A stretch of 63,953 nucleotides of DNA, the filler included, from Stramenopiles sp. TOSAG23-2 (taxonomy: Eukaryota): assembly GCA_900128395.1 (NCBI GenBank). It is 3 parts of 3 records of this genome, joined end to end, with 100 filler letters (N's around TTAATTAATTAA, not from the genome) between each part and the next. Parts side by side here need not be neighbours in the genome. Positions count along the whole stretch, not along the records: positions 1 to 21,259 come from LT649539.1; 2 more parts are not named here. One strand, 5' to 3'. Under the pieces are notes generated by a model. The model did no database searches. It had not been told where the DNA came from and saw nothing but the letters and a program-made list of their open reading frames with translations. Positions 18,042 through 63,321 of the stretch are shown piece by piece; within the stretch, counting starts at the first letter, position 1; the number at the start of each line of letters is the position of its first letter. The translations under genes and the position numbers were made by a program.

Positions 18042-19583
18042 CTATTCAAACATTTTCTTCACACGATCGGCTGCATCGCCAAAAAAACTATTTCCATCAG
18101 AACGCCCAGTACTTCCATCAATTGTTTCCCTACCATTATTATTATCGCTATCACCATCATCATCGCCACCACTTCTCCTTGCAATAATTTGTCCATTTTC
18201 TTCTTCTTCCTTTCTAAATTCTTCCAACAATTCTTTTTGTCGGTCTGATAATTTTTGTGGTACAACAACATTAAAATGTACATATTGATGACCACGACGT
18301 CCACCACCATTTAATACTGGTACCCCACGATTACGTAACACTACACGATCACCTGGTTGCGTACCAATTGGTACTTTTAAATCAACTTCACCTTTTAATG
18401 TTGGTAAAGTGATTTTATCACCTAAACTTGCTTGTGATAATGAAATTGGTATTTCCACATGTACATCACTATCATCTCGTTGAAAGAACGGATCTTCCTT
18501 TACAACTACTTCAACATATAAATCACCAGCAGGGCCACTTCGTAAACCATCATCACCTTGTCCACCAACACGTAAATTAATGCCTGTATCAACACCTGGT
18601 GGTATTTTCACATCAACTGTTTTTGTCTCCGGTATACGACCTTGACCACTACATGATGGACATGGATCTTTAATCACTGAACCTGTACCTCTACATGCAT
18701 TACATGTAGTTTGCATATACATAAAACCACGTTTTACCATTTTCACACCTGTGCCTTGACATTCAGTACATGTGGTAGGTCCTGTGCCAGATTTAGCGCC
18801 TGTACCACCACATGGATCGCATTTTTTCATACGACGTATATTCATTTCCCTAGAACAACCTTTCACCGCTTCCATAAAATCTAATGTCACCCGTCCTTGT
18901 AAATCACCACCACGTTGTGGTGCATTTGGATTTTGACGTCTTCCACCACCACCAAATGGACCACCGCCTCCAAATATATCATTTAAATTGCTAAATATAT
19001 CTTCAGGATTTACATTACCTTGAAAGCCACCACCACCACCAAATGGATTGCCACCACCGCCGCCGCCGCCGCCAAATGGATTGCCACCATGTCCAAACGA
19101 ATCATACGCTTGTCTTTTTTCTGCATCACTTAATGTATCATATGCATCTTGTAACTCTGCAAATTTTTCAGTTGCTCCTTCATCTTTATTTACATCTGGG
19201 TGTAACGTTTTTGCTAATTTATAATATGCCTTTTTAATATCAGATTGCGATGCAGATTTCGATACACCAAGAACATCGTAATGATCACGTTTTGAACTTG
19301 GTGTTGTTGTATGTATGAAATGATGTGATGATAAGTTTTTATTGAATAATAAATTTTTATTATTATAATTGTTATATTTTGGTGAATAATTTGTTGTTGA
19401 ATTTTTTGTTATTACATGTTGTTTCGTTCGTTTATTGTTGTTATTGTTATTATTATGTATCATATTATTATTTGATGTAAATATTGTACGATGTACAATC
19501 ATCCAATTGTTATTATTATTATTTTTTGGATGATGTTGACGTCGTATTAATTTTTGTACAATATTACTATATGTAGGCCTCAT
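18042..19583 (-). CDS. dnaJ: Type I DnaJ/Hsp40 chaperone, probably mitochondrial (Mdj1/DNAJA3-like)
   Basis: J domain with HPD, G/F-rich linker, four CxxCxGxG repeats, DnaJ C-terminal domain; basic, acid-free presequence from ATG 19583 (MRPTYSNIVQKLIRR). Confidence 0.95.
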   Translation of the reverse strand: MRPTYSNIVQKLIRRQHHPKNNNNNNWMIVHRTIFTSNNNMIHNNNNNNNKRTKQHVITKNSTTNYSPKYNNYNNKNLLFNKNLSSHHFIHTTTPSSKRDHYDVLGVSKSASQSDIKKAYYKLAKTLHPDVNKDEGATEKFAELQDAYDTLSDAEKRQAYDSFGHGGNPFGGGGGGGGNPFGGGGGFQGNVNPEDIFSNLNDIFGGGGPFGGGGRRQNPNAPQRGGDLQGRVTLDFMEAVKGCSREMNIRRMKKCDPCGGTGAKSGTGPTTCTECQGTGVKMVKRGFMYMQTTCNACRGTGSVIKDPCPSCSGQGRIPETKTVDVKIPPGVDTGINLRVGGQGDDGLRSGPAGDLYVEVVVKEDPFFQRDDSDVHVEIPISLSQASLGDKITLPTLKGEVDLKVPIGTQPGDRVVLRNRGVPVLNGGGRRGHQYVHFNVVVPQKLSDRQKELLEEFRKEEEENGQIIARRSGGDDDGDSDNNNGRETIDGSTGRSDGNSFFGDAADRVKKMFE

Positions 19584-19901
19584 TTTTGTCTTTTTTATCG
19601 TTTGAATTATTATTATTATTTCAATGAGTAGTCTTGTTGTCAATAATTTAGTATCAATGTTCAATAGAAATTAGTATTAAATGACAATAGCTGTATCAGT
19701 TGATAATCTATATGATAATTGTTTGAATATATAGATGTATGTATGTATGTATGTGTTTAATTACTTACACATACACAAGAAAAGAATAATATAAATATTT
19801 TTATTTAATGAATATTTGTGGTTAGTTTGTGTTTTGTGCTTTTATTATTCTTCGTGCACTCGTCGTCGATATTCGAACAATAGCATAGATATAGCATTGT
19901 A

Positions 19902-20148: not shown

Positions 20149-21259
20149 CTAGCATGTGACGTCATGCGAAACGCTATTAAATCGCGACTTTGTTCGATAT
20201 GAGCGACATTGTGCAGTCCAAGAGTTTTTAGTGCAATGCCTGCAAGCGCTATCGCTACATCCATAAAAGCTAAAGCTACCCCCCCCATTACAAGAGACGC
20301 CTCTTACGTAACCTCTACTACTCCAAGGGTTCTTACGGCAACCAGAAAAGATCGGGTACTTTTTTATATGGGATTCTATTGCGCGACCACTACAAGTACG
20401 ACCATTATAATATTTAGTTATCATAACCGCTTGTCGACCAACACCATACGCTCTTCTCCCGCCTCTGAATCTCGGACTACTCACATCTAGATGTGGAGCT
20501 GGGTTGTATCCACCGCCACCACCTAAATTTGGCCCATCGCCTAAATGCGGAGCTGGATTATATCCACCACCATCACCTAAATTAGGCCCATAATTTTCAT
20601 CCCAGTTGTATTCAGCCCCTGCTTTGTATGGTCCTTTCTCATATTCACCGTACACACGACCACCACCAACATGAGCTTCTTTCTCGTCCCATTTATTCGA
20701 TTGCATCTGACGATGATGATGCATATGCTGATTGTGCCTGTGGGCAGCATTTTCATCCCAGTTGTATTCAGCCCCTGCTTTGTATGGTCCTTTCTCATAT
20801 TCACCGTACACACGACCACCACCAACATGAGCTTCTTTCTCGTCCCATTTATTCGATTGCATCTGACGATGATGATGCATATGCTGATTGTGCCTGTGGG
20901 CAGCATTTTCATCCCAGTTGTATTCACCACCTGCTTTGACTGGTCCTTTGTTGTATTCGCCGTAAACTTTACCACCACCAACATTTTCTTCCATGACGTC
21001 GAAACTTCCACCACATGCTTTCTTTGCATCGTTCATCCATCTTCTGTCACCACCTGCTTTGACTGGTCCTTTGTTGTATTCGCCGTAAACTTTACCACCA
21101 CCTACATTCGATTCTTCCTCGTCCATAAACTTGTTAATCAACTTTTTAGCCCCCCATTTTATAATACGTGTTTGAGGAGAGCCAACATTTTCATCATTGG
21201 CATCTTCATCCCAGTTGTATTCACCACCTGCTTTGACTGGTCCTTTGTTGTATTCGCCG
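20149..21259 (-). CDS. 5'-truncated repeat polyprotein / multi-peptide precursor with a C-terminal 8-Cys cationic domain
   Basis: Frame is open from the gap edge (21259) to TAG at 20149; repeated GG(K/R)VYGEY(N/E)KGP(V/Y)KAG(G/A)EYNW units separated by acidic DE...(N/H)VG spacers. Confidence 0.85.
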
Positions 21260-21359
21260 NNNNNNNNNNNNNNNNNNNNNNNNNNNNNNNNNNNNNNNNN
21301 NNNTTAATTAATTAANNNNNNNNNNNNNNNNNNNNNNNNNNNNNNNNNNNNNNNNNNNN
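21260..21359. other. Artificial scaffold spacer (44N + TTAATTAATTAA + 44N)
   Basis: Exactly 100 bp with a six-frame stop linker at 21304-21315; identical to 42617-42716. Confidence 0.97.
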
Positions 21360-42616: not shown

Positions 42617-42716
42617 NNNNNNNNNNNNNNNNNNNNNNNNNNNNNNNNNNNNNNNNNNNNTTAATTAATTAANNNNNNNNNNNNNNNNNNNNNNNNNNNN
42701 NNNNNNNNNNNNNNNN
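42617..42716. other. Artificial scaffold spacer (44N + TTAATTAATTAA + 44N)
   Basis: Exactly 100 bp; linker at 42661-42672. Confidence 0.97.
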
Positions 42717-49852: not shown

Positions 49853-50276
49853 TGTAATTATTTTGTTCTTTTGATTTTCACAACCAATACGTTTGAATTA
49901 CTCTACCTCTTTAATCTATTTTTTTTCCCTTTTCTAAAATCTAGATATTGTTACATATATATATCTATATATATCTACTACGCACACACAGTGCAAAAAT
50001 AATAAGTCGTGATTTATGTATTGGTGTCGTAAAGTGATAGACAGAATAATTACTGTAGCATGGAATAGCAGGCGCATTGCAAAAAAAAAGGCTTTTACAC
50101 AAACAACAACTTGCAAAACACACACAATCGAGTCAGCAAGTCACACAGCAAAATTCATAATAATAAAAATACATTTTAATTTAATGGAAAAGAGTAGCTA
50201 AGAACTCTGGAAAAGAAATTTTTATAATCAAATCATTTATCCCTTGAGTGTGGGAAATATATATATAGAGAGAGAT

Positions 50277-51587
50277 ATGATGCGGATGTACAATAATACA
50301 TCGTGGAGGAAATCATTTCAATTTATTTATTTATTTATATTATTTATTACAACATGTAATAGTATTATCAATGAAAATAATAATAATAAATATTATAATG
50401 TAGTAGATTTTGGTGCAAAGGGAGATGGAAAAACCTTTGATACAATTGCTATACAAAGAGCCGTACGTGCAGTAGCCCATGAAGGATCAGGGACGATTAT
50501 TTTTCCAAAGAATAAAATATTTTTAACTGGTCCTTTTAATTTGACTTCGTTTTGTACCCTTTTTATTGAAGAAAACACAACAATATTAGGTTCCTTTAAT
50601 AAAGCGGATTATATGCGTATACCTGCACTCCCATCATATGGTCAAGGGAAACATGGCGGTCCAACACGACGAATTTCGTTAATCCATGGAGAAAATTTAA
50701 CAAATGTTATTATTACAGGGAAAAATGGAACGATTGATGGGAATGGCGCTGTATGGTGGGATCATAAAGAAAAAAATGATACTGCACCTCATTTAATTGA
50801 ATTTATGTATAGTTTTAACATTGAGGTATCACATGTCACACTGATAAATACACCTTTTTGGACAGTTCATCCATATATATGTAAAGGATTTCTTGCGCAT
50901 CACGTATGGATTATCAATCCATCAAATGTCACAAATACAGATGGAATTGATCCTGATTCGACACAGGATGTATTGATTCATAATGTATATATTAACACAG
51001 GCGATGATGGGATAGCTATTAAATCTGGTTGGGATGAATATGGATACGATGTCGTCAATATTTCAAGCCGGAATATTACCATTCGTGATTCTACAATTAC
51101 TACACCTTGCGCTGCAATTAGTGTTGGATCGGAAATGAGTGGGGGTGTAGCTGATGTATATATTTCTAATACATATTTGTACGATACAACTGCTGGTGTA
51201 CACATTAAATCTGGACGTGGTCGTGGTGGTTATGTACATAATATCTTCATGGAAAAATTAACAATGAATAACTGTTTCTATGGAATTATGGTTGATACCG
51301 ATAGTGATAAGACACCTGATAATACTCCAGGGCATCATTTTAATTTAAGTGCGATTCCAGATATAAGAAATATATCGGCTCGTAATATAAATGGTAAAAA
51401 AAGCAAAGTTGTTGCAAAATTAATTGGTTTAAAAGAAGATCCAATGCGGGATATCAAATTAGAAAATATACATTTTAATGACGATGCAATATATGAATGT
51501 GGTAATGTTTCTGGTACATATACCAATACATTTCCAAAACCGTGTGATTTATTAATACCGGAGGAGATATATGTGAGGGGGGTGTAG
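50277..51587 (+). CDS. Glycoside hydrolase family 28 (polygalacturonase, exo-type-like), secreted
   Basis: YNVVDFGAKGDG, NTDGIDPDS, GDDGIAIKSG, SVGSEMSGG, HIKSGRGRGG; N-terminal hydrophobic segment. Confidence 0.95.
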   Translation: MMRMYNNTSWRKSFQFIYLFILFITTCNSIINENNNNKYYNVVDFGAKGDGKTFDTIAIQRAVRAVAHEGSGTIIFPKNKIFLTGPFNLTSFCTLFIEENTTILGSFNKADYMRIPALPSYGQGKHGGPTRRISLIHGENLTNVIITGKNGTIDGNGAVWWDHKEKNDTAPHLIEFMYSFNIEVSHVTLINTPFWTVHPYICKGFLAHHVWIINPSNVTNTDGIDPDSTQDVLIHNVYINTGDDGIAIKSGWDEYGYDVVNISSRNITIRDSTITTPCAAISVGSEMSGGVADVYISNTYLYDTTAGVHIKSGRGRGGYVHNIFMEKLTMNNCFYGIMVDTDSDKTPDNTPGHHFNLSAIPDIRNISARNINGKKSKVVAKLIGLKEDPMRDIKLENIHFNDDAIYECGNVSGTYTNTFPKPCDLLIPEEIYVRGV

Positions 51588-51778: not shown

Positions 51779-53893
51779 CTACACATATACAATACTGGTT
51801 GCCATCCCATGCTTAATATGCTCAATCATATGACAATGAAATAACCATTGACCTGGATTATTCGTTTGAAAACATATGGTAGCACTATGGCATCTTGGAG
51901 GAATTTGTATCGTATCTCTAACAGGGCCATCTTCAAGTATTTCTCCGTCTAATTCTACCACTTGAAAACTATGTCCATGTAAATGCATTGGGTGCCCCGT
52001 ATGCCCATTATTTTGCATTTTTATACAATACTTCTTATTTTCATATACGACAATTGGTTTTGGATTCATAACAACCATGCCATCTTTTTCAAATTTTGCC
52101 AAGTCCCATAATACATGATTCATACTAAATACATGCAACCATCCACTGGTCAAATTCATTGGTATAATTTCTTCAACTTCATCTGGTCTGTAAGATATTT
52201 TAGGAACATCATCATATTTTGCTTTTAATTTTTTTTCCAAATCATAATATATTAATGGAGATTTCTTATCAGCTAATTCGGATGGAATTTGAAAATTATT
52301 TTCTTCATTTTTTGCATTATTATTATCAGCTGCTGCTGCTGCGGACGACGACGGCGACGATTGTTTCTTTGCTTTTAATATAATACCAGTTCGATTTCGC
52401 TCACCTTGCCATTGTGCTAAGATAGGATGATATGAATACTTGGGTGATTTCTCATCATTACTAGATAATGGAATTGTAAATTTTATATCCATTCGTTGAC
52501 CTGAACAGATAGGAAATTTTTTTTCCGTCACTCCACTTTGAACATTAATACCATCGACACTTTGTACTTCTGCATCTATATTATTTGGCATGTAAATCCA
52601 AAAACATACTGAGCCTGCAGAATTAATAATTCTCAGTACAATTTCATCACCTTCAGCAACATTGATTATTTGTGGATCTTTCAATGTTTTTCCATTTGCT
52701 AATAATCGATCATATGATCCCCATAACGTCCCAAATCTAGCATGAAGCCAATCCAACGATGGTAACTGATTTGCTTTTTCATCATAACGACACATATTAA
52801 ACGCTTCATCTTCCGTATTTGATAGATCCGCATTTGTTACTGACGGGCATTGTTTACAGTTATTGCTTTTCATTTTATTACATAACGATTGCGAGCACAT
52901 GACACCTTTTCTTGGCTTTCCATTACAGGAACATTGTAAATATTCATATCTACCAAGAAAAACGGGGCATATACATGGATTAGATTCATCAAAATCATTT
53001 TGAACAAATTTATATGGTATATCTTTCGTATCAATCGGTATTTTATTTGGACAAAAATCGGCATTTCCAGACGCACATTCCGGATGTCTTGACATTCCAT
53101 CTTCTAAAAATAATAGCAAATCACGTTTTTTATTATTAGTAGCATCATTATATTTGATTTCTTCCTCTACATCTTCACCATCAATAGCAAGGAAAAAAGC
53201 TCCTAAACGTTGTTGATGTTGCCATTTAAAATGCGAATGCATAAAAAATGTACCTGGATGTTCAATATCGAAATCATAGTTTGCCATCCCACCATTTTTA
53301 TCAATTGCTTGTCCAGTTAAACCAGGTACACCATCTTGTTCAAATGGTACGACAATTCCATGCCAATGTAGCATGGTTGGTTCATTTAATAAATTTTCCA
53401 CTTTAAGACTAACATGTTTCCCTTTCTTTAAACGTACAACAATGCCTTCAATACCTTGTCGTTCTTCCCAACACATATTTTTTGTACATGGGATAGCATT
53501 AGGCTTTAACCTGATACCAAGTTCAATATTATATTTATCGTTAATATCAATAAACGGACGTTTATATATTTGTAAATGCAAACGATTGGTATCTGAAAAA
53601 TCTCCAGGTGACATACCACTTTGTATTATTATATATATAATATAAAATGTTCCAACTATTAATCCACAACCAAATAGATGATAAACAAGACTGGATGCAT
53701 TGTTAAATACATTTTTCTTATTATTATTATTATTATTTTCGTCTCCAAAATAATATTCATTATTATCGTTTAATTGCCGATATTGTGTGGAATTACTACT
53801 TAATGGTATGGACAATGTATTATTATTCACACCACTCTTATTAGTCATTTCCATCATTTTATTGTTGTTGTTGTTGTTGTTGTTAAGCATCAT
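51779..53893 (-). CDS. Three-domain multicopper oxidase with N-terminal TM anchor
   Basis: Copper motifs HWHG, MHSH, HPMHLHGH and HCHMIEHIKHGM (axial Met). Confidence 0.95.
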   Translation of the reverse strand: MMLNNNNNNNNKMMEMTNKSGVNNNTLSIPLSSNSTQYRQLNDNNEYYFGDENNNNNNKKNVFNNASSLVYHLFGCGLIVGTFYIIYIIIQSGMSPGDFSDTNRLHLQIYKRPFIDINDKYNIELGIRLKPNAIPCTKNMCWEERQGIEGIVVRLKKGKHVSLKVENLLNEPTMLHWHGIVVPFEQDGVPGLTGQAIDKNGGMANYDFDIEHPGTFFMHSHFKWQHQQRLGAFFLAIDGEDVEEEIKYNDATNNKKRDLLLFLEDGMSRHPECASGNADFCPNKIPIDTKDIPYKFVQNDFDESNPCICPVFLGRYEYLQCSCNGKPRKGVMCSQSLCNKMKSNNCKQCPSVTNADLSNTEDEAFNMCRYDEKANQLPSLDWLHARFGTLWGSYDRLLANGKTLKDPQIINVAEGDEIVLRIINSAGSVCFWIYMPNNIDAEVQSVDGINVQSGVTEKKFPICSGQRMDIKFTIPLSSNDEKSPKYSYHPILAQWQGERNRTGIILKAKKQSSPSSSAAAAADNNNAKNEENNFQIPSELADKKSPLIYYDLEKKLKAKYDDVPKISYRPDEVEEIIPMNLTSGWLHVFSMNHVLWDLAKFEKDGMVVMNPKPIVVYENKKYCIKMQNNGHTGHPMHLHGHSFQVVELDGEILEDGPVRDTIQIPPRCHSATICFQTNNPGQWLFHCHMIEHIKHGMATSIVYV

Positions 53894-59146: not shown

Positions 59147-62100
59147 TTAACAATCACCATTGCTCCCTCTGCTGAGCAATCTCTTTCTTCTCTTTCCAAT
59201 AGAATTTGTAACTTTATAAATTGTTCCAGTCACCGCAACATTTTTTGAATAATCTTTATTTGATTTATCTTTCAATGCTACCAATTTGTCTTTGCATCCA
59301 GGTTTAGCTTGACAGAGCTTGACATCTCTCAAACCATCGCAGCAACGGTCATTATCGACGTATGCTTTTACTTTCACACTTGCACCAATTAGGTAGTCCC
59401 TAACTTTACAATATGGCAATTCACTTTGTAGGTACCCGTTTTTATCTTCGGTATTCAAATTCACAACGGCAACCCATTCTTTTTCTGTACCTAATGTATC
59501 CATATAAACTTGTTGTATTGAAATATCTTTTGCAGTAAATAATGGTGCAGCTGGACAACTTGTATCTTTGATATCATATCGTAATGATTGTTTCAAATTA
59601 AGCATATAATTTTGATATTCAGATGAAACATCATTTTTCAAATAATGTAATGCAATATTTTTTACATTGGCATTGGATAAATCGATATGACTATACCCTT
59701 TACAACGTGATAGTTTCATCTTTGCTAAATTATCCGATGTCCACGTTGTACCAGCTGTTGCATGCTTGCATTGTTGTTCAGCTTTCGGTATTTTGGATCC
59801 TGGCTTCGCTTGCATAACTTGTTGCATATTCGTATTCCCGTTTTTCCCTAAACGATTTTTAGTATATAATTGGCGTTTACGTAAGAAAGTTTCCATTGTT
59901 TCTAAGAAAGATGTTGATTGTTGTATTTTCATTGGCTTTATTAACAGTGTTTCAATTAACTCATAAAAGTTTCTCATTGCATGTTTATATGGAACAAATA
60001 ATTCACATAATTTAGTTTCGGGATTTCCTGGCTTGTCAACAATACGTGGTCCACATAAGGAAACTTCGTCGAAAAACTCATCTATTGATTTTTCCACTGT
60101 TTTTTTCTGTGATTTATTGATCGATGGAAGCGATTTTATCAAAGCAAGTATACCTTTGTGTAAATAACCATTCTTTTTTATTGAATCGATAACTTCCGCG
60201 TACAAGTTATGACGACTATAATTTCCACCAGATGATAATGCAAATGGTACAATTTCACCACGATTTAATTTACCAGATGGATCTGCACATATTTTCAACG
60301 TTTTATCACGCCGTTCTTTACAACATATATTTGGCCAAAACGATTTTGCTTCTTTATCAATAGATTGTATTTGAAATAAATTATCTAAATCGGAAGTGAA
60401 AGAGCAAAATGATTTTAATAATTCATCACGATTTGTATCAATACATGTTGTATCTTCAATTTTTTCAATTTCATTTGATATTTCAATTGCAGGGAAAATA
60501 ACCGTACCTTTTGCACGTTGTGTTTCACATGATGTTTTCTCATTTGCGTCATCTTGTTTCTTGCGGGATTTCATAAACTGATCATGCCGCATCCTAATTT
60601 GTTCTTTTTGCCACAAACGTGAATTTTTAATAGACAAATCGTTTTGTTTTTCTTTTTGTTGGTCTAATATTTTGAAAATTTTATTGAATCTATCTGTCAT
60701 ACCTTTTGTCAAACCAGGACAATCAGGGGATCCACGTTTGCCACTGGTGGTTGTACCATCTGTGCAAGGCTTACATGGTTCCCCACCTTTGCTTTTATAA
60801 TCTTCCTGGCACATTCGACACGTTCGTTCAGTGGTATTTTGTACATTTTCATATCCATCGGGGCAAGTAGCTTTGCAATCAATTGCTAAACCAGTGGACG
60901 TTTTGATGACATAATTTGCGCATTTTTGGCATTGAATATGATCCCCACCTGGACTATAATGTTGTGATGGGCATTTGTTGCAGATTCTTGTTTTGCATAT
61001 GCATTTATCATCATTGTTACATGCTGTTGTTGAGTGTGAGTTGGTATTAAAGCTGTATTTATTACTATGACCAGAATCATAGAAACAGCCAGGTGGAGAA
61101 TGCGGATAAGCATATTTGCCTACAAATCCTTCATTATTATCAATATTATTCTTACGATTACTTTCAGCTGCTAATTTACATTCTGCTTCTGTTTTTATTT
61201 TCATTTTTTTAGAACTACATTGTGAACCAGATGTACGTATATCGACGGGCAACAAAATACCAAATCCTTCTGTGCAAACGTTTGCCTTTACACATGCATC
61301 AATCGATGTTTGCCCAGTTTTGCCTGCAGTTGATGGTGTATTTCTTGGGCAACTTTTACATTCTTTATTGATACCACCTTTGGAGTATGTATTTATTGGG
61401 CATTTATTACATTTTTTAGTTTTGCATATACATTTATGTCCTTCATAACCACATTGTTTTAACGGTTGAACGTCATTCCAATAATATTTACCAGCACCAT
61501 GAATAGTACTATGAACACATCCAGGTGGTGCATTCGGCCAACTCCCTCGGTGTGCATATCCTTTATTATTATCAATATTATTCTTACTATTATATTCAGC
61601 TGCTGCTATGCATTCTGCTTCTGTGGTTATTTTATAAATTCCACTACATTGGGATGCATCACCAGATGTACGAATATCAGTTGGTAATAAAATACCATAA
61701 CCAGCTTTAACCATAACATCATCTTTTTTGCGCGTGCATGAATCTTCCGAATCTTGTTTACTATTTAAAAATGTATATGGTCGTTCTGCTGGACATGGTG
61801 TACATTTTGGACTAATACCACCTTCACTATATGTATATTTAGGGCACTTCTTACATTTTGATGCTTTGCATATACAGGGACGTTCACCAACACAGTGTGC
61901 AGTTGAATTTGAGTTTGTATTAAAACGATATTTATTAGTATACATGTGATGAAAACATCCAGGTGGATAACCAAATGAAGAAGTTACCGCATATCCTTTA
62001 TTGGTATCAATGCCATTCTCCCTATTAGATTCAGCTGCTGCCTTACATTCTGCTTCCGTTTTTATTTTATTCATACCAGTGCATTGTGGACCGTGCGCAC

Positions 62101-63037
62101 GAATATCTACGGGTTGCAAAACGCCTTCACCAGCTTCGCATACATCTGCTGTTATACATCCATTTATTGATGTTTGCCCTTCTTTGCCTGCGGTTGATGC
62201 TTTATTTGGTGGGCACTTTTCACATTTTGCATTTAGACCGCCTCTTGAATACGTATTCGCTTTGCATGTAGCACATGTAGGTTTTATTTTGCAAATGCAA
62301 TTATAATGAGACGCACAACGAAATTCGGATCCAAAATTTCCATTAAAAGTTACTCCACCATTGCCGCTTATATAACAACCAGGCGGTCTAATTAATTCAT
62401 CAACAACTCTTACTTGCTTCCCCCATCTATATTTAGCAGCTATTTTGCATTCTTCAGCCGACGTTATATATGATGGGCATCTACCAGAAGATTGCATGTT
62501 ATCGGTAACACCTTTCCCTGGTTCGCACATCAGAGCTTTTTCTACATTAACACATGAGTTTGAAGATGTTTGGTTACTACCATCATATGTGAATGGTCTG
62601 TCCACTGGACATGATATACATGTTGCATTGATACCTCCTATACTATATGTATTGATTGGGCATTTGTGACATGTGTTTGGTTTGCAGACACATTTATGTG
62701 TATTTTTACAATTTACTGTTGATTTTGCGTTGTGGTTAAAACTATATGTATTAGAACCAGTTTGTGTAAAATAAAAACATCCAGGTGGGTTAGTCGACCA
62801 AGTCTGATGGATTTTAAATCCTTTATTTTTATCAATACCATTCTTACTATTATATTCAGCTGCTAATTTACATTCTAGCCATGTTGTTATTTTAGATTCA
62901 CCATTACATTGTGATGCTAAACCAGATGTAAATCCATATGGTGCAATACGTTCACCAGCTTTACACTCAAGATCTTCACCTCTAGCAACAGATATTAACA
63001 TAATAAAACATATTTTTAAAACACTAACTTGCTTCAT
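59147..63037 (-). CDS. Secreted Cys-rich protein with five ~130-aa modules (each with an ephrin-receptor-like/GCC2-GCC3 repeat), a coiled coil and an unknown C-terminal domain
   Basis: Signal peptide MKQVSVLKICFIMLISVARG from ATG 63037; repeated ITTxxECxxAA...PPGC...CICK...CxKCPxNTYSxGG; ends KRRKRLLSRGSNGDC. Confidence 0.85.
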   Translation of the reverse strand: MKQVSVLKICFIMLISVARGEDLECKAGERIAPYGFTSGLASQCNGESKITTWLECKLAAEYNSKNGIDKNKGFKIHQTWSTNPPGCFYFTQTGSNTYSFNHNAKSTVNCKNTHKCVCKPNTCHKCPINTYSIGGINATCISCPVDRPFTYDGSNQTSSNSCVNVEKALMCEPGKGVTDNMQSSGRCPSYITSAEECKIAAKYRWGKQVRVVDELIRPPGCYISGNGGVTFNGNFGSEFRCASHYNCICKIKPTCATCKANTYSRGGLNAKCEKCPPNKASTAGKEGQTSINGCITADVCEAGEGVLQPVDIRAHGPQCTGMNKIKTEAECKAAAESNRENGIDTNKGYAVTSSFGYPPGCFHHMYTNKYRFNTNSNSTAHCVGERPCICKASKCKKCPKYTYSEGGISPKCTPCPAERPYTFLNSKQDSEDSCTRKKDDVMVKAGYGILLPTDIRTSGDASQCSGIYKITTEAECIAAAEYNSKNNIDNNKGYAHRGSWPNAPPGCVHSTIHGAGKYYWNDVQPLKQCGYEGHKCICKTKKCNKCPINTYSKGGINKECKSCPRNTPSTAGKTGQTSIDACVKANVCTEGFGILLPVDIRTSGSQCSSKKMKIKTEAECKLAAESNRKNNIDNNEGFVGKYAYPHSPPGCFYDSGHSNKYSFNTNSHSTTACNNDDKCICKTRICNKCPSQHYSPGGDHIQCQKCANYVIKTSTGLAIDCKATCPDGYENVQNTTERTCRMCQEDYKSKGGEPCKPCTDGTTTSGKRGSPDCPGLTKGMTDRFNKIFKILDQQKEKQNDLSIKNSRLWQKEQIRMRHDQFMKSRKKQDDANEKTSCETQRAKGTVIFPAIEISNEIEKIEDTTCIDTNRDELLKSFCSFTSDLDNLFQIQSIDKEAKSFWPNICCKERRDKTLKICADPSGKLNRGEIVPFALSSGGNYSRHNLYAEVIDSIKKNGYLHKGILALIKSLPSINKSQKKTVEKSIDEFFDEVSLCGPRIVDKPGNPETKLCELFVPYKHAMRNFYELIETLLIKPMKIQQSTSFLETMETFLRKRQLYTKNRLGKNGNTNMQQVMQAKPGSKIPKAEQQCKHATAGTTWTSDNLAKMKLSRCKGYSHIDLSNANVKNIALHYLKNDVSSEYQNYMLNLKQSLRYDIKDTSCPAAPLFTAKDISIQQVYMDTLGTEKEWVAVVNLNTEDKNGYLQSELPYCKVRDYLIGASVKVKAYVDNDRCCDGLRDVKLCQAKPGCKDKLVALKDKSNKDYSKNVAVTGTIYKVTNSIGKRRKRLLSRGSNGDC

Positions 63038-63321
63038 TATTATCCACACACAATAAATACAATACAAACAAACTTTCGAAACCAATGTTCTATGTATTCG
63101 TTTCAAACTACTAACTATAGCTACAACGAATGCAACTACGATACCTGTCTCCAATCTCCAAGAAACAGTAAAAAATAATGTCAACGAAAAATGCCAACAA
63201 TTACAAACAATTACGTAGAACCTCCCAAAGCTATGCGTGTCTGATACCGTGTTCTATGTTCACGATAAAAGTATTCGTGTGTTTGGTTACTTCTACGTGT
63301 ACGTGTGTTTTTGCTTTACGT

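What the first reader, a model, noticed from the sequence alone, without database searches (positions are those of the whole stretch)
20598..21100. Repeated 21-aa beta-hairpin core ending in an outer-membrane-protein beta-signal-like Y-x-W
Seen: GG(K/R)VYGEY(N/E)-KGP-(V/Y)KAG(G/A)EYNW occurs as 3 full copies, one C-truncated copy and one copy cut by the gap, in two sequence variants. It has an alternating strand pattern around a KGP turn and a terminal aromatic residue. Established: bacterial OMP beta-signals and Gly-rich insect AMPs (attacin/diptericin) have similar G-x-x-Y-x-F/W strands, and darobactin inhibits BamA by mimicking the beta-signal. Inference: the hairpins could oligomerise into a beta-barrel pore or amyloid-like sheet, or act as BamA decoys.
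Basis: inference. Interest (0 to 1): 0.7.

Follow-up and report, generated by a model that had tools for sequence, protein, structure and literature searches.

The report
Repeat cassette of protist lysozyme proteins
The repeated 21-residue motif is the core of a 29-residue building block found in secreted lysozyme-type and peptide-like proteins of uncultured marine protists; it probably helps them attack the bacteria they eat, and its likeness to a bacterial membrane-protein signal holds letter for letter but has not been tested for function.

Summary
Five copies of the motif lie in one minus-strand ORF (20149-21259): three full, one truncated, and one cut at an artificial N-linker joint.

The window is eukaryotic. 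The ORF is a partial gene of a rare family: 47 representative clusters among 1.84 billion proteins, none longer than 454 aa. The family occurs only in marine metagenomes and metatranscriptomes.

The motif is the core of a roughly 29-aa cassette: V-G-G-G-[KR]-[VI]-Y-G-E-Y-N-K-G-P-x-K-x-G-x-E-arom-N-arom-D-E plus an acidic spacer. It occurs 1-6 times per protein. It sits after an SLT_3 lysozyme-like domain and between cationic Cys-rich modules, in proteins with signal-peptide-like N-termini. There is no Pfam or PDB relative.

Unit DNA shows purifying selection (pN/pS 0.27). AlphaFold2 models each unit as strand-loop-strand, but at pLDDT below 50.

The second strand fits the OMP beta-signal descriptor in 95 of 109 family units. 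However, 4.5% of composition-preserving shuffles of the unit fit it too. The motif is also internal and followed by D-E.

The truncated copy sits exactly where independent DNA contigs continue into a lysozyme domain instead.

Best reading (0.4): a prey-envelope-binding module. Main rival (0.3): a processed polyprotein spacer. A BamA decoy role remains untested.

The parts
20149..21259 (-). Partial ORF (369 codons plus TAG stop). Its 5' end is lost at the artificial joint. It encodes a mosaic secreted protein of the cassette family.
   Evidence: homologues
21202..21259 (-). Unit copy cut by the window's joint (GEYNKGPVKAGGEYNWDED).
21106..21204 (-). Linker module DANDENVGSPQTRIIKWGAKKLINKFMDEEESN, shared with P0002, P0004 and L030.
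21046..21105 (-). C-truncated unit (VGGGKVYGEYNKGPVKAGGD). Its 3' junction at 21047/21048 is where independent contigs diverge into a lysozyme-like domain.
20983..21045 (-). RRWMNDAKKACGGSFDVMEEN. In homologues this segment directly follows the SLT_3 lysozyme-like domain.
20908..20982 (-). Full unit, variant A.
20827..20907 (-). His-rich linker NAAHRHNQHMHHHRQMQSNKWDEKEAH (copy 1).
20752..20826 (-). Full unit, variant B.
20671..20751 (-). His-rich linker (copy 2). Together with the next unit it forms a 156-bp copy identical to the preceding one.
20596..20670 (-). Full unit, variant B.
20488..20595 (-). Gly/Pro-rich module, two copies of GDG(P)NLGGGGGYNPAPHL (54-bp period). The unit-to-module junction is bridged without differences by contigs of X1 and X6.
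   Evidence: also in P0003, P0049, L031
20152..20487 (-). Cationic (+16) C-terminal module with 8 Cys. It is shared with P0003 (77% identity by tblastn), P0064 and P0079. Contigs of an RNA run (X3) and a PolyA RNA run (X18) cover it.
21260..21359 (.). Artificial joint N44-TTAATTAATTAA-N44 between two equal-sized pieces of the window. It is not part of the gene.

Best explanation
The 21-aa motif is the core of a roughly 29-aa extracellular cassette. The cassette consists of V-G-G-G-[KR]-[VI]-Y-G-E-Y-N-K-G-P-[YVI]-K-[AV]-G-[GA]-E-[YWH]-N-[WF]-D-E plus a short acidic spacer that usually ends in N.

Shown:
- The cassette is specific to a small family of mosaic proteins of uncultured marine protists. 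Most full-length members have a signal-peptide-like N-terminus.
- It occurs 1-6 times per protein. It sits typically after a GH23-type (SLT_3) lysozyme-like domain and between or before cationic Cys-rich modules.
- The window's gene is a 5'-truncated member: units, then a Gly/Pro module, then a cationic 8-Cys module.

Inferred:
- Each unit is an independent hairpin-prone element without Cys. One face carries Y/A/A/Y/W or V/V/G/W/F.
- The units stay attached to the effector domains and bind a conserved component of the prey cell envelope, most simply the glycan or peptidoglycan layer.
- They would thus hold lysozyme and cationic modules on the bacterium in the food vacuole, with tandem copies giving avidity. 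This is how Gly/aromatic hairpin repeats work in bacterial and phage cell-wall hydrolases.

The unit is not itself an OMP beta-signal.
For: Family and architecture:
- 47 hits in the word-index search, 12 of them with a precomputed PF18896 domain.
- PF18896 confirmed at E 4e-24 in P0002 and 3e-25 in P0005.
- The Glu of AWAESRGD is invariant in 10 of 10 aligned members.
- Genomic single ORFs: signal peptide + SLT_3 + 6 tandem units + a 300-aa domain (L032); SLT_3 + 4 units with other modules between them (L031).
- Contigs of X1 and X6 place the lysozyme-domain end directly upstream of the window's RRWMND... segment.
- 36 of 53 proteins of at least 150 aa that start with M have an N-terminal hydrophobic stretch.

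Constraint on the peptide:
- 79 units with full flanks show invariant G, Y-G-E, G-P and G positions.
- pS 0.46 against pN 0.13 among 27 distinct unit DNAs.

Hairpin:
- All 3 units are modelled as strand-loop-strand (low confidence).
- Residues at i, i+2 positions of the second strand change together: YAAYW in 41 and VVGWF in 40 of 112 units.

Avidity-like copy numbers and membrane-anchored members (P0024, P0041: units, then Ser/Thr-rich stalk, then a hydrophobic segment) suggest the unit works within intact ectodomains.

Expression:
- 7 of the 20 runs that hold the stretch are recorded as RNA, including PolyA and oligo-dT libraries.
- PolyA-run contigs cover 20183-20463 with no differences.
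Against: - No ligand binding was tested. No similarity to any known binding repeat was found: Pfam gave nothing meaningful at E up to 10, and the PDB sequence and profile searches gave nothing significant.
- Both structure models are of low confidence: mean pLDDT 32.9 and 38.3. Even the lysozyme domain failed to fold, so the models neither show nor exclude a stable fold.
- A 25-aa unit without disulfides may not fold on its own.
- In one search, 37 of 71 unit-bearing proteins have a single unit.
- The unit with its flanks is net negative in 70 of 71 proteins, which is unusual for binding anionic envelopes.
- The motif acidic-(N)-V-G also precedes unrelated modules: 101 of 194 junctions. Outside units there are 73 observed against 8.8 +/- 2.9 in shuffles. 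This is more easily read as a processing or junction signal than as part of a binding fold.
- Copies within one protein are almost identical, as in multi-copy peptide precursors.
- The co-variation may only reflect two lineages.
Confidence: 0.4

Rival explanations
1. Processed polyprotein. The cassette is a conserved acidic spacer or pro-region. The junction aromatic-D-E-acidic-(N)|V-G is a cleavage site, perhaps for an Asn/Asp-directed lysosomal protease. Cleavage would free the lysozyme, the cationic Cys-rich modules and the small peptides in the food vacuole. Until then the anionic cassettes would neutralise and escort the cationic modules.
For: - The junction motif precedes every kind of module: 194 junctions in 79 proteins, 101 not followed by the unit core. 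Outside units there are 73 against 8.8 +/- 2.9 in 500 shuffles.
- The residue before V/I-G is N in 115 and D in 12 of 194 junctions.
- The unit span is net negative in 70 of 71 proteins. 24 of the 26 C-terminal parts of at least 100 aa are net positive and often Cys-rich.
- A second family syntax points to proteolytic or sorting signals: internal RRL occurs 82 times against 4.5 +/- 2.2 expected, and 24 of 79 proteins end in -RL.
- The mosaic architecture recalls multi-peptide precursors (PMC5850478, abstract seen in the listing; plant and insect AMP polyproteins are recalled only).
Against: - There are no dibasic or other established processing sites at the junctions.
- The residue before V-G is S, Q, R, E, G or H in about a third of junctions. 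It is H in the window's two variant-B units.
- Tandem arrays of up to six units with nothing between them (L032) are pointless for a mere spacer.
- Near-invariance over about 23 residues is far more than a spacer needs.
- The counted proteins are related, so the enrichment counts are not independent. Partial units left by recombination inside repeats could also produce 'NVG' before other modules.
- No cleavage data exist.
Confidence: 0.3
2. First reader's reading. The unit, free or tethered, acts on the Gram-negative outer membrane. It would do so as a beta-signal mimic that beta-augments BamA, BamD or nascent OMPs, or by self-assembling into a beta-sheet pore or amyloid.
For: - The second strand fits zeta-x-G-x-x-arom-x-arom in 95 of 109 family units, and the 9-residue internal-signal descriptor in 97 of 109 (descriptors from passages of PMC10945584).
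- The strict motif occurs once in 15,873 aa of the window's other long ORFs.
- Precedents exist for beta-signal mimicry by peptides and protein antibiotics: OmpC-derived peptides inhibit assembly (PMC10945584, passages). Llp/L-type pyocin C-terminal peptides bind BamA strand 1 (bioRxiv 10.64898/2026.09.25.754295, passages; PMC13463100, abstract in the listing).
- Family tails such as ...SIGNWINFRL carry an aromatic/hydrophobic dyad near the true C-terminus.
Against: - The descriptor carries little information: 4.5% of composition-preserving shuffles of the unit fit it.
- Because the copies are repeats, the matches amount to one independent event.
- The motif is internal, followed by D-E and an acidic spacer, and sits in a net-negative soluble context.
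- The cap position of the Llp motif (aromatic or His) is E in the units.
- No lectin or other BamA-docking domain was detected.
- There is no evidence of release, oligomerisation or membrane activity.
Confidence: 0.08
3. Structural or adhesive material. The Gly/Tyr/Lys-rich cassettes would be cross-linked (for example through tyrosines) or serve as sticky elements of a secreted matrix, prey-capture mucus or cyst wall. The enzyme and peptide modules would be embedded in that material.
For: - The composition of the unit is G, Y, K, N, P and W rich, with four conserved aromatic positions.
- It occurs in many unrelated secreted and membrane-anchored proteins.
- Resemblance in composition to Tyr/Gly-rich structural and adhesive proteins is recalled, not tested.
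Against: - Structural repeats usually tolerate much sequence drift, whereas here about 20 positions are nearly invariant.
- Copy numbers are low (1-6).
- The partner modules are lytic or cationic rather than structural.
- The multicopper oxidase in the window lies in another, unlinked piece, so it is no evidence.
Confidence: 0.1
4. Part of what the reader saw is an assembly artefact. The truncated copy, and possibly the exact duplication of the 156-bp unit, would come from a chimeric or collapsed assembly of paralogous repeat genes. The true gene would then start with signal peptide plus lysozyme-like domain directly before RRWMND...
For: - At 21047, contigs of X1 and X6 continue into lysozyme-domain sequence instead of the truncated unit.
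- None of the pieces listed bridges the window's junction.
- The two 156-bp copies are 100% identical.
- Many 'skip' joints between unit copies appear in all four runs (table 5).
Against: - The family is genuinely mosaic, so a paralogue with this junction could exist.
- Logan contigs break at repeats and 98 pieces were not listed, so absence proves nothing.
- The three full units and their link to the C-terminal modules are corroborated (X1 and X6 contigs across about 20590; P0049 and L031).
Confidence: 0.5

Closest known systems
Cell-wall (choline-) binding repeats, CW_binding_1, of pneumococcal LytA and phage Cpl-1 lysozyme (properties recalled, not fetched here)
   Same: Short Gly/aromatic-rich repeats thought to form beta-hairpins. 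They are present in tandem, C-terminal to a peptidoglycan hydrolase domain, with copy number giving avidity.
   Different: - No sequence relationship: there was no Pfam hit of this family.
- The period is 29 aa, not about 20, and the inter-unit spacers are acidic.
- Copies are nearly identical, and single copies are common.
- The units are also fused to non-enzymatic cationic Cys-rich modules.
- The family is eukaryotic and lineage-restricted.
- The ligand is unknown.
OMP beta-signal and its mimics (darobactin; C-terminal peptides of lectin-like bacteriocins / L-type pyocins)
   Same: The second strand of the unit fits zeta-x-G-x-x-arom-x-arom and has the alternating amphipathic pattern of a barrel strand. 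The antibacterial context is shared.
   Different: - The motif is internal, repeated and followed by acidic residues, not at a C-terminus.
- The context is soluble and net negative.
- There is no BamA-docking domain.
- The cap residue of the Llp motif is absent (passages).
- Binding is untested.
Multi-copy peptide and AMP polyprotein precursors (for example yeast alpha-factor-type and AMP polyproteins; PMC5850478 abstract, the rest recalled)
   Same: Signal peptide, near-identical short peptides in tandem, a conserved spacer syntax, and anionic segments next to cationic Cys-rich modules.
   Different: - There are no dibasic or other established cleavage sites.
- Large enzyme domains sit in the same chain.
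- Processing has not been shown.
SLT_3 (PF18896) / GH23 lysozyme-like proteins of protists, giant viruses and phages
   Same: Family members carry this domain at E about 1e-24 with the conserved Glu. Viral contigs encode relatives of the domain at 33-57% identity.
   Different: - None of the 29 viral loci carries the cassette.
- The window's ORF itself holds only the last 21 residues that follow the domain.
HNH beta-hairpin of colicin E9 DNase
   Same: This was the only PDB sequence picked up by the family profile. The aligned stretch [25 protein letters not shown] lies over a unit.
   Different: E = 0.31, which is not significant. The catalytic His and Asn positions are not conserved in the unit. 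It is a curiosity, not a relationship.

Membership tests
OMP beta-signal (BAM substrate signal) | Sequence descriptor zeta-x-G-x-x-[arom/hydrophobic]-x-[arom/hydrophobic] | tested here: met
   It fits in 95 of 109 family units and in the window's four units with an intact second strand (cut copy plus three full units), under the strict aromatic form. The descriptor comes from passages of PMC10945584. However, 4.5% of shuffles of the unit also fit.
OMP beta-signal (BAM substrate signal) | Lies in the last (or -5) strand of a beta-barrel outer-membrane protein of a diderm bacterium | tested here: not met
   The motif is an internal repeat in a eukaryotic secreted mosaic protein, always followed by D-E and an acidic spacer.
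OMP beta-signal (BAM substrate signal) | Recognised by BamA or BamD | not testable with these tools
   The complex prediction was not folded by the tool.
Beta-signal-mimic protein antibiotics (Llp / L-type pyocins) | Extreme C-terminal peptide with [arom/hydrophobic]-x-[arom/hydrophobic]-x-[arom/His] | tested here: not met
   The units read Y-N-W-D-E and are internal. The window protein ends ...SHDVTC. Some relatives end ...WINFRL or ...GGWRL, with the dyad present but Leu at the cap. The motif comes from passages of the preprint.
Beta-signal-mimic protein antibiotics (Llp / L-type pyocins) | Lectin domain that docks on BamA loop 6 | tested here: not met
   No lectin family was found in the Pfam scans of P0001 and 13 relatives or locus ORFs.
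CW_binding_1 / choline-binding repeats | Match to the family profile | tested here: not met
   No such hit for P0001 at E up to 10, nor for the relatives scanned at E up to 0.01.
CW_binding_1 / choline-binding repeats | Tandem Gly/aromatic hairpin repeats attached to a peptidoglycan hydrolase | tested here: met
   SLT_3 plus 2-6 units in P0005, P0009, L031 and L032. For the window's gene this holds only through the contigs. The hairpin itself is modelled at low confidence.
CW_binding_1 / choline-binding repeats | Binds a cell-wall ligand | not testable with these tools
   This needs binding assays.
SLT_3 (PF18896) lysozyme-like proteins | Domain present in the same protein | tested here: inconclusive
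   The domain is absent from the window (tblastn) because the 5' end is missing. It is present in 12 of 47 relatives. It also lies directly upstream in contigs of X1 and X6.
SLT_3 (PF18896) lysozyme-like proteins | Conserved catalytic Glu (role recalled) | tested here: met
   E55 of AWAESRGD is invariant in 10 of 10 aligned relatives. This cannot be assessed for the window's own gene.
Gly-rich insect AMPs (attacin / diptericin) | Match to a family profile | tested here: not met
   The Pfam scan at E up to 10 gave only two sub-threshold, unrelated hits.
Multi-copy peptide / AMP polyprotein precursors | Signal peptide and near-identical peptides separated by a conserved spacer | tested here: met
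   36 of 53 proteins have a hydrophobic N-terminus.
Multi-copy peptide / AMP polyprotein precursors | Established processing sites and demonstrated cleavage | tested here: inconclusive
   No dibasic sites occur at the junctions. N precedes V/I-G in 115 of 194. Cleavage is not testable here.

The most novel reading that the evidence does not exclude
A eukaryotic predator has evolved its own beta-signal mimic. The second strand of the cassette would beta-augment BamA, BamD or nascent OMPs of Gram-negative prey inside the food vacuole. It could act while tethered to the lysozyme, or after trimming of the acidic tail exposes the terminal aromatic residue. Either way it would block envelope repair or dock the lytic modules at the outer membrane. 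This would be a protist counterpart of darobactin and the L-type pyocins.
Probability: 0.07. Interest if true: 0.9.

Novelty: new variant of a known kind. Interest (0 to 1): 0.5.

Why it matters
Small uncultured marine protists are a main cause of bacterial death in the sea, and their lysozyme families are among their most expressed glycoside hydrolases (passages of PMC8237690). I do not know whether this organism belongs to the group studied there. How such predators breach Gram-negative envelopes is poorly known.

The cassette is an undescribed, strongly conserved module. An exact search for its 8-letter motif found 0 papers, and it has no Pfam or PDB relative. It links a lysozyme-like domain, cationic Cys-rich peptides and unknown domains in one gene family.

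Its sequence could serve as a tag for finding further secreted effector genes in metagenomes.

If it binds the envelope, or is a processing signal, it shows how these proteins are aimed or activated. If the beta-signal likeness is functional, it would be a new natural source of outer-membrane-directed peptides.

Tried and rejected
- **AlphaFold2 of P0005 with 9 relatives.** Mean pLDDT was 32.9 and even the lysozyme domain failed, so the result is uninformative.
- **AlphaFold2 of the window's 3-unit segment with 17 relatives.** Mean pLDDT was 38.3. Only the secondary-structure pattern is used, as a weak hint.
- **Fold searches.** Not run, because models this poor give meaningless matches.
- **Complex prediction, E. 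coli BamA barrel with one unit.** Not folded by the tool, so there is no result either way.
- **ESM Atlas.** P0005 gave only SLT_3-type clusters at scores of 0.82 or lower. The 300-aa C-terminal domain of P0019 gave no usable hit.
- **PDB by sequence.** P0013 gave 0 hits at E up to 10. P0003 gave only chance hits. The family profile gave only colicin E9 at E 0.31.
- **Pfam.** Nothing meaningful for P0001, P0003, P0010, P0014, P0030, P0031, P0037, P0038, P0048 or the L045 ORF. My guess that the N-terminal part of P0003 is saposin-like got no support.
- **Whole genome.** None is held.
- **Earlier findings of this scan.** None.
- **Giant-virus origin of the window.** Considered and rejected. The window encodes Sec66, IQ, fascin-like, Dpy-30, GH28, multicopper oxidase and LRR/Notch-LNR proteins. 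Viral contigs share only the lysozyme domain.
- **Asn-endopeptidase cleavage as the specific junction mechanism.** Weakened because the window's two variant-B units have His before V-G.
- **Coverage in X1.** No contig covers 21114-21191. This is a hole and proves nothing.
- **Depth figures.** Not used to judge expression level.
Full report
**What is in the sequence**

The finding lies on the minus strand, in one open frame from 21259 down to a TAG stop at 20149-20151. Five copies of the motif are present:
- three full units, at 20908-20982, 20752-20826 and 20596-20670;
- one copy truncated after ...KAGG, at 21046-21105;
- one copy cut at 21259.

At the DNA level there is a 156-bp period (2.5 copies, score 700). 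Its two complete copies are identical.

The 'gap' is N44-TTAATTAATTAA-N44. A second such joint lies at 42617-42716, and the three pieces measure 21259, 21257 and 21237 bases. The window is therefore three equal pieces stitched together, and the gene's 5' part is simply outside it.

**What kind of genome this is**

No prokaryotic genome is held for the window. The other long ORFs encode Sec66, IQ-motif, fascin-like, Dpy-30, DEAD-box, DnaJ (with poly-Asn), GH28, multicopper oxidase, LRR/Notch-LNR and ephrin-receptor-like Cys-rich proteins. GC content is 27-42%.

This is a compact, AT-rich eukaryote. Twenty of the 24 public runs listed hold the stretch or a part of it, from 11 studies. All are marine or aquatic metagenomes or metatranscriptomes, apart from three small DNA runs labelled with coded organisms. 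Seven of the 20 are RNA, some of them PolyA or oligo-dT libraries.

**The family**

P0001, the window's partial protein, has no meaningful Pfam match. A word-index search of 5.8 billion proteins found 47 relatives. A full HMMER pass over 1.84 billion representatives also found 47 with E up to 1e-3, none longer than 454 aa. The family is therefore rare and lineage-restricted.

Twelve of the 47 carry an N-terminal SLT_3 (PF18896) lysozyme-like domain. This was confirmed at E 4e-24 and 3e-25. The Glu of AWAESRGD is invariant in 10 of 10 aligned members.

In these proteins the segment (K/R)RWMNDAKKACGGS... follows the lysozyme domain and leads into the first unit. The same segment is what follows the truncated copy in the window.

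Seventeen metagenome loci give the genomic picture. They show long single ORFs:
- L032: signal peptide, SLT_3, six tandem units, then a 300-aa unknown domain.
- L031: signal peptide, SLT_3, unit, small Cys module, unit, Gly/Pro (YNPAPHLGDG) repeats, two units, then the 300-aa domain ending SPFRL.
- L033: four ephrin-receptor-like Cys-rich repeats, four units, then a cationic Cys-rich tail.

The window's own C-terminal half is a Gly/Pro repeat followed by a cationic 8-Cys module (+16). It recurs in P0003 (77% identity), P0064 and P0079.

The join from unit to Gly/Pro repeat has independent support. It appears in P0049 and L031, and error-free contigs of X1 and X6 cross it.

Twenty-nine viral contigs share the lysozyme domain, but none of them carries the unit.

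**The unit**

Seventy-nine units with full flanks give the profile [DE]-x-E-[EQ]-N-V-G-G-G-[RK]-[VI]-Y-G-E-Y-N-K-G-P-[YVI]-K-[AV]-G-[GA]-E-[YWH]-N-[WF]-D-E. G, Y-G-E, G-P and G are invariant. The shortest period is 29 aa.

Among 27 distinct unit DNAs from the window and 13 loci, pS is 0.46 and pN is 0.13, a ratio of 0.27. Several synonymous codons are used at invariant Gly and Pro positions. The peptide, not the DNA, is therefore conserved. One caveat is that the units were picked by a peptide pattern.

The same-face residues of the second strand occur mainly as two sets: YAAYW (41 of 112 units) and VVGWF (40 of 112). This fits a strand with one packed face, but may only reflect two lineages.

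AlphaFold2 on the window's three-unit segment modelled every unit as strand-loop-strand, but at mean pLDDT 38. A first model of a lysozyme-plus-units protein failed altogether. I take the hairpin as plausible, not shown.

**Syntax around the unit**

With its flanks, the unit span is net negative in 70 of 71 proteins. In contrast, 24 of the 26 C-terminal parts of at least 100 aa are net positive, and many are Cys-rich.

The element 'acidic residues, then usually N, then V/I-G' occurs 194 times in 79 proteins. In 101 of these it is followed by something other than the unit. Outside units it is seen 73 times, against 8.8 +/- 2.9 in shuffles. Small modules also tend to end aromatic-D-E.

A second syntax is RRL: 82 occurrences against 4.5 expected. 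Twenty-four of 79 proteins end in -RL, and 22 of those have an aromatic residue or His at -3.

Thirty-six of 53 proteins of at least 150 aa that start with M have a hydrophobic N-terminus.

These regularities show a family of secreted mosaics built from modules joined by a fixed junction.

**The beta-signal likeness**

The descriptor zeta-x-G-x-x-[arom/hydrophobic]-x-[arom/hydrophobic], and the 9-residue internal-signal descriptor, are given in PMC10945584 (passages).

- The unit's second strand fits the strict aromatic form in 95 of 109 family units, and the internal form in 97 of 109.
- The strict form occurs once in 15,873 aa of the window's other long ORFs.
- It appears in 4.5% of composition-preserving shuffles of the unit.
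- The repeated copies count as one event.

The motif is internal and followed by acidic residues. Precedents for beta-signal mimicry by antibacterial proteins do exist (preprint 10.64898/2026.09.25.754295, passages). However, their defining C-terminal position, cap residue and docking domain are not met here.

The reading is therefore not excluded, but it has no positive support beyond the letters.

**The truncated copy**

At 21047, contigs of two DNA runs (X1, which holds most of the stretch, and X6) leave the window. They continue into sequence that I read by eye as ...PWATYNDGLH followed by RRWMND..., which is the normal lysozyme-to-unit transition.

None of the pieces listed bridges the window's version; 98 pieces were not shown. 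I put even odds on this junction being a chimeric join rather than a true paralogue.

**Mechanism**

I commit, at 0.4, to a prey-envelope-binding module that stays attached to the effectors. The arguments for it are:
- the lysozyme-plus-tandem-repeat architecture;
- copy numbers of 1-6;
- the aromatic face;
- near-identical independent units;
- membrane-anchored members.

The main rival, at 0.3, is a processed polyprotein in which the cassette and its junction are cleavage or escort elements. The junction statistics, the charge pattern and the RRL/-RL syntax argue for it. The tandem arrays and the long invariant core argue against a mere spacer.

**Novelty**

The cassette has no Pfam or PDB relative. 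Its 8-letter motif is absent from the searchable papers. It is a new module within a known kind of system, namely modular secreted antibacterial hydrolases and peptides.

Noticed in passing
family proteins P0004-P0076 (not the window's own ORF): 24 of 79 family proteins end in -RL, 22 of them with an aromatic residue or His at -3 (WINFRL, GGWRL, QWRL, SPFRL). Internal RRL occurs 82 times against 4.5 expected. This may be a sorting or cleavage signal; the likeness to RxL-type export motifs is recalled only.
   Followed up: partly
family-wide; in the window e.g. 21106-21129 and 20983-20991: A fixed junction syntax, aromatic-D-E-acidic-(N)-V-G, precedes every module type, not only the unit.
   Followed up: yes
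window 21260-21359 and 42617-42716: The window is three pieces of 21259, 21257 and 21237 bases joined by N44-TTAATTAATTAA-N44. Genes in different pieces are therefore not neighbours.
   Followed up: yes
window 59147-63184 (-): A 1345-aa ORF of ephrin-receptor-like / TNFR-like Cys-rich repeats. The N-terminus of P0037 matches it at 48-76% identity. In L033 and P0037 such repeats are fused to the cassette and a cationic tail.
   Followed up: partly
window 20152-20487 (-): The cationic 8-Cys C-terminal module (...FSFYGCSDSACRHCTKN...) is a small family of its own (P0003, P0064, P0079), with no Pfam or PDB relative.
   Followed up: partly
P0019 residues 175-454; L030, L031, L032: A domain of about 300 aa of unknown function, with a Gly/Ala/Ser-rich amphipathic-looking stretch, ends many lysozyme-cassette proteins. 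Neither Pfam nor the Atlas gave a hit.
   Followed up: partly
P0024, P0041: Variant units (KVYAEYQKGPYTAG) sit in what looks like a type-I membrane protein: Ser/Thr-rich stalk, hydrophobic segment, short tail.
   Followed up: no
L030 5677-7404: The lysozyme-like domain of this locus is interrupted upstream of ...VRISSNGGKW (intron or frameshift), whereas L031 and L032 have it in one ORF.
   Followed up: no
window 18042-19664 (-): A DnaJ-type ORF with poly-Asn tracts in a long N-terminal extension, plus Gly-rich and CxxCxGxG regions.
   Followed up: no
window 50244-51587 (+) and 51779-53893 (-): A GH28 polygalacturonase-like ORF and a three-domain multicopper oxidase ORF lie side by side in the third piece.
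   Followed up: no
PDB hit: The family profile weakly aligns (E 0.31) a unit with the HNH hairpin region of colicin E9. This is probably chance.
   Followed up: no
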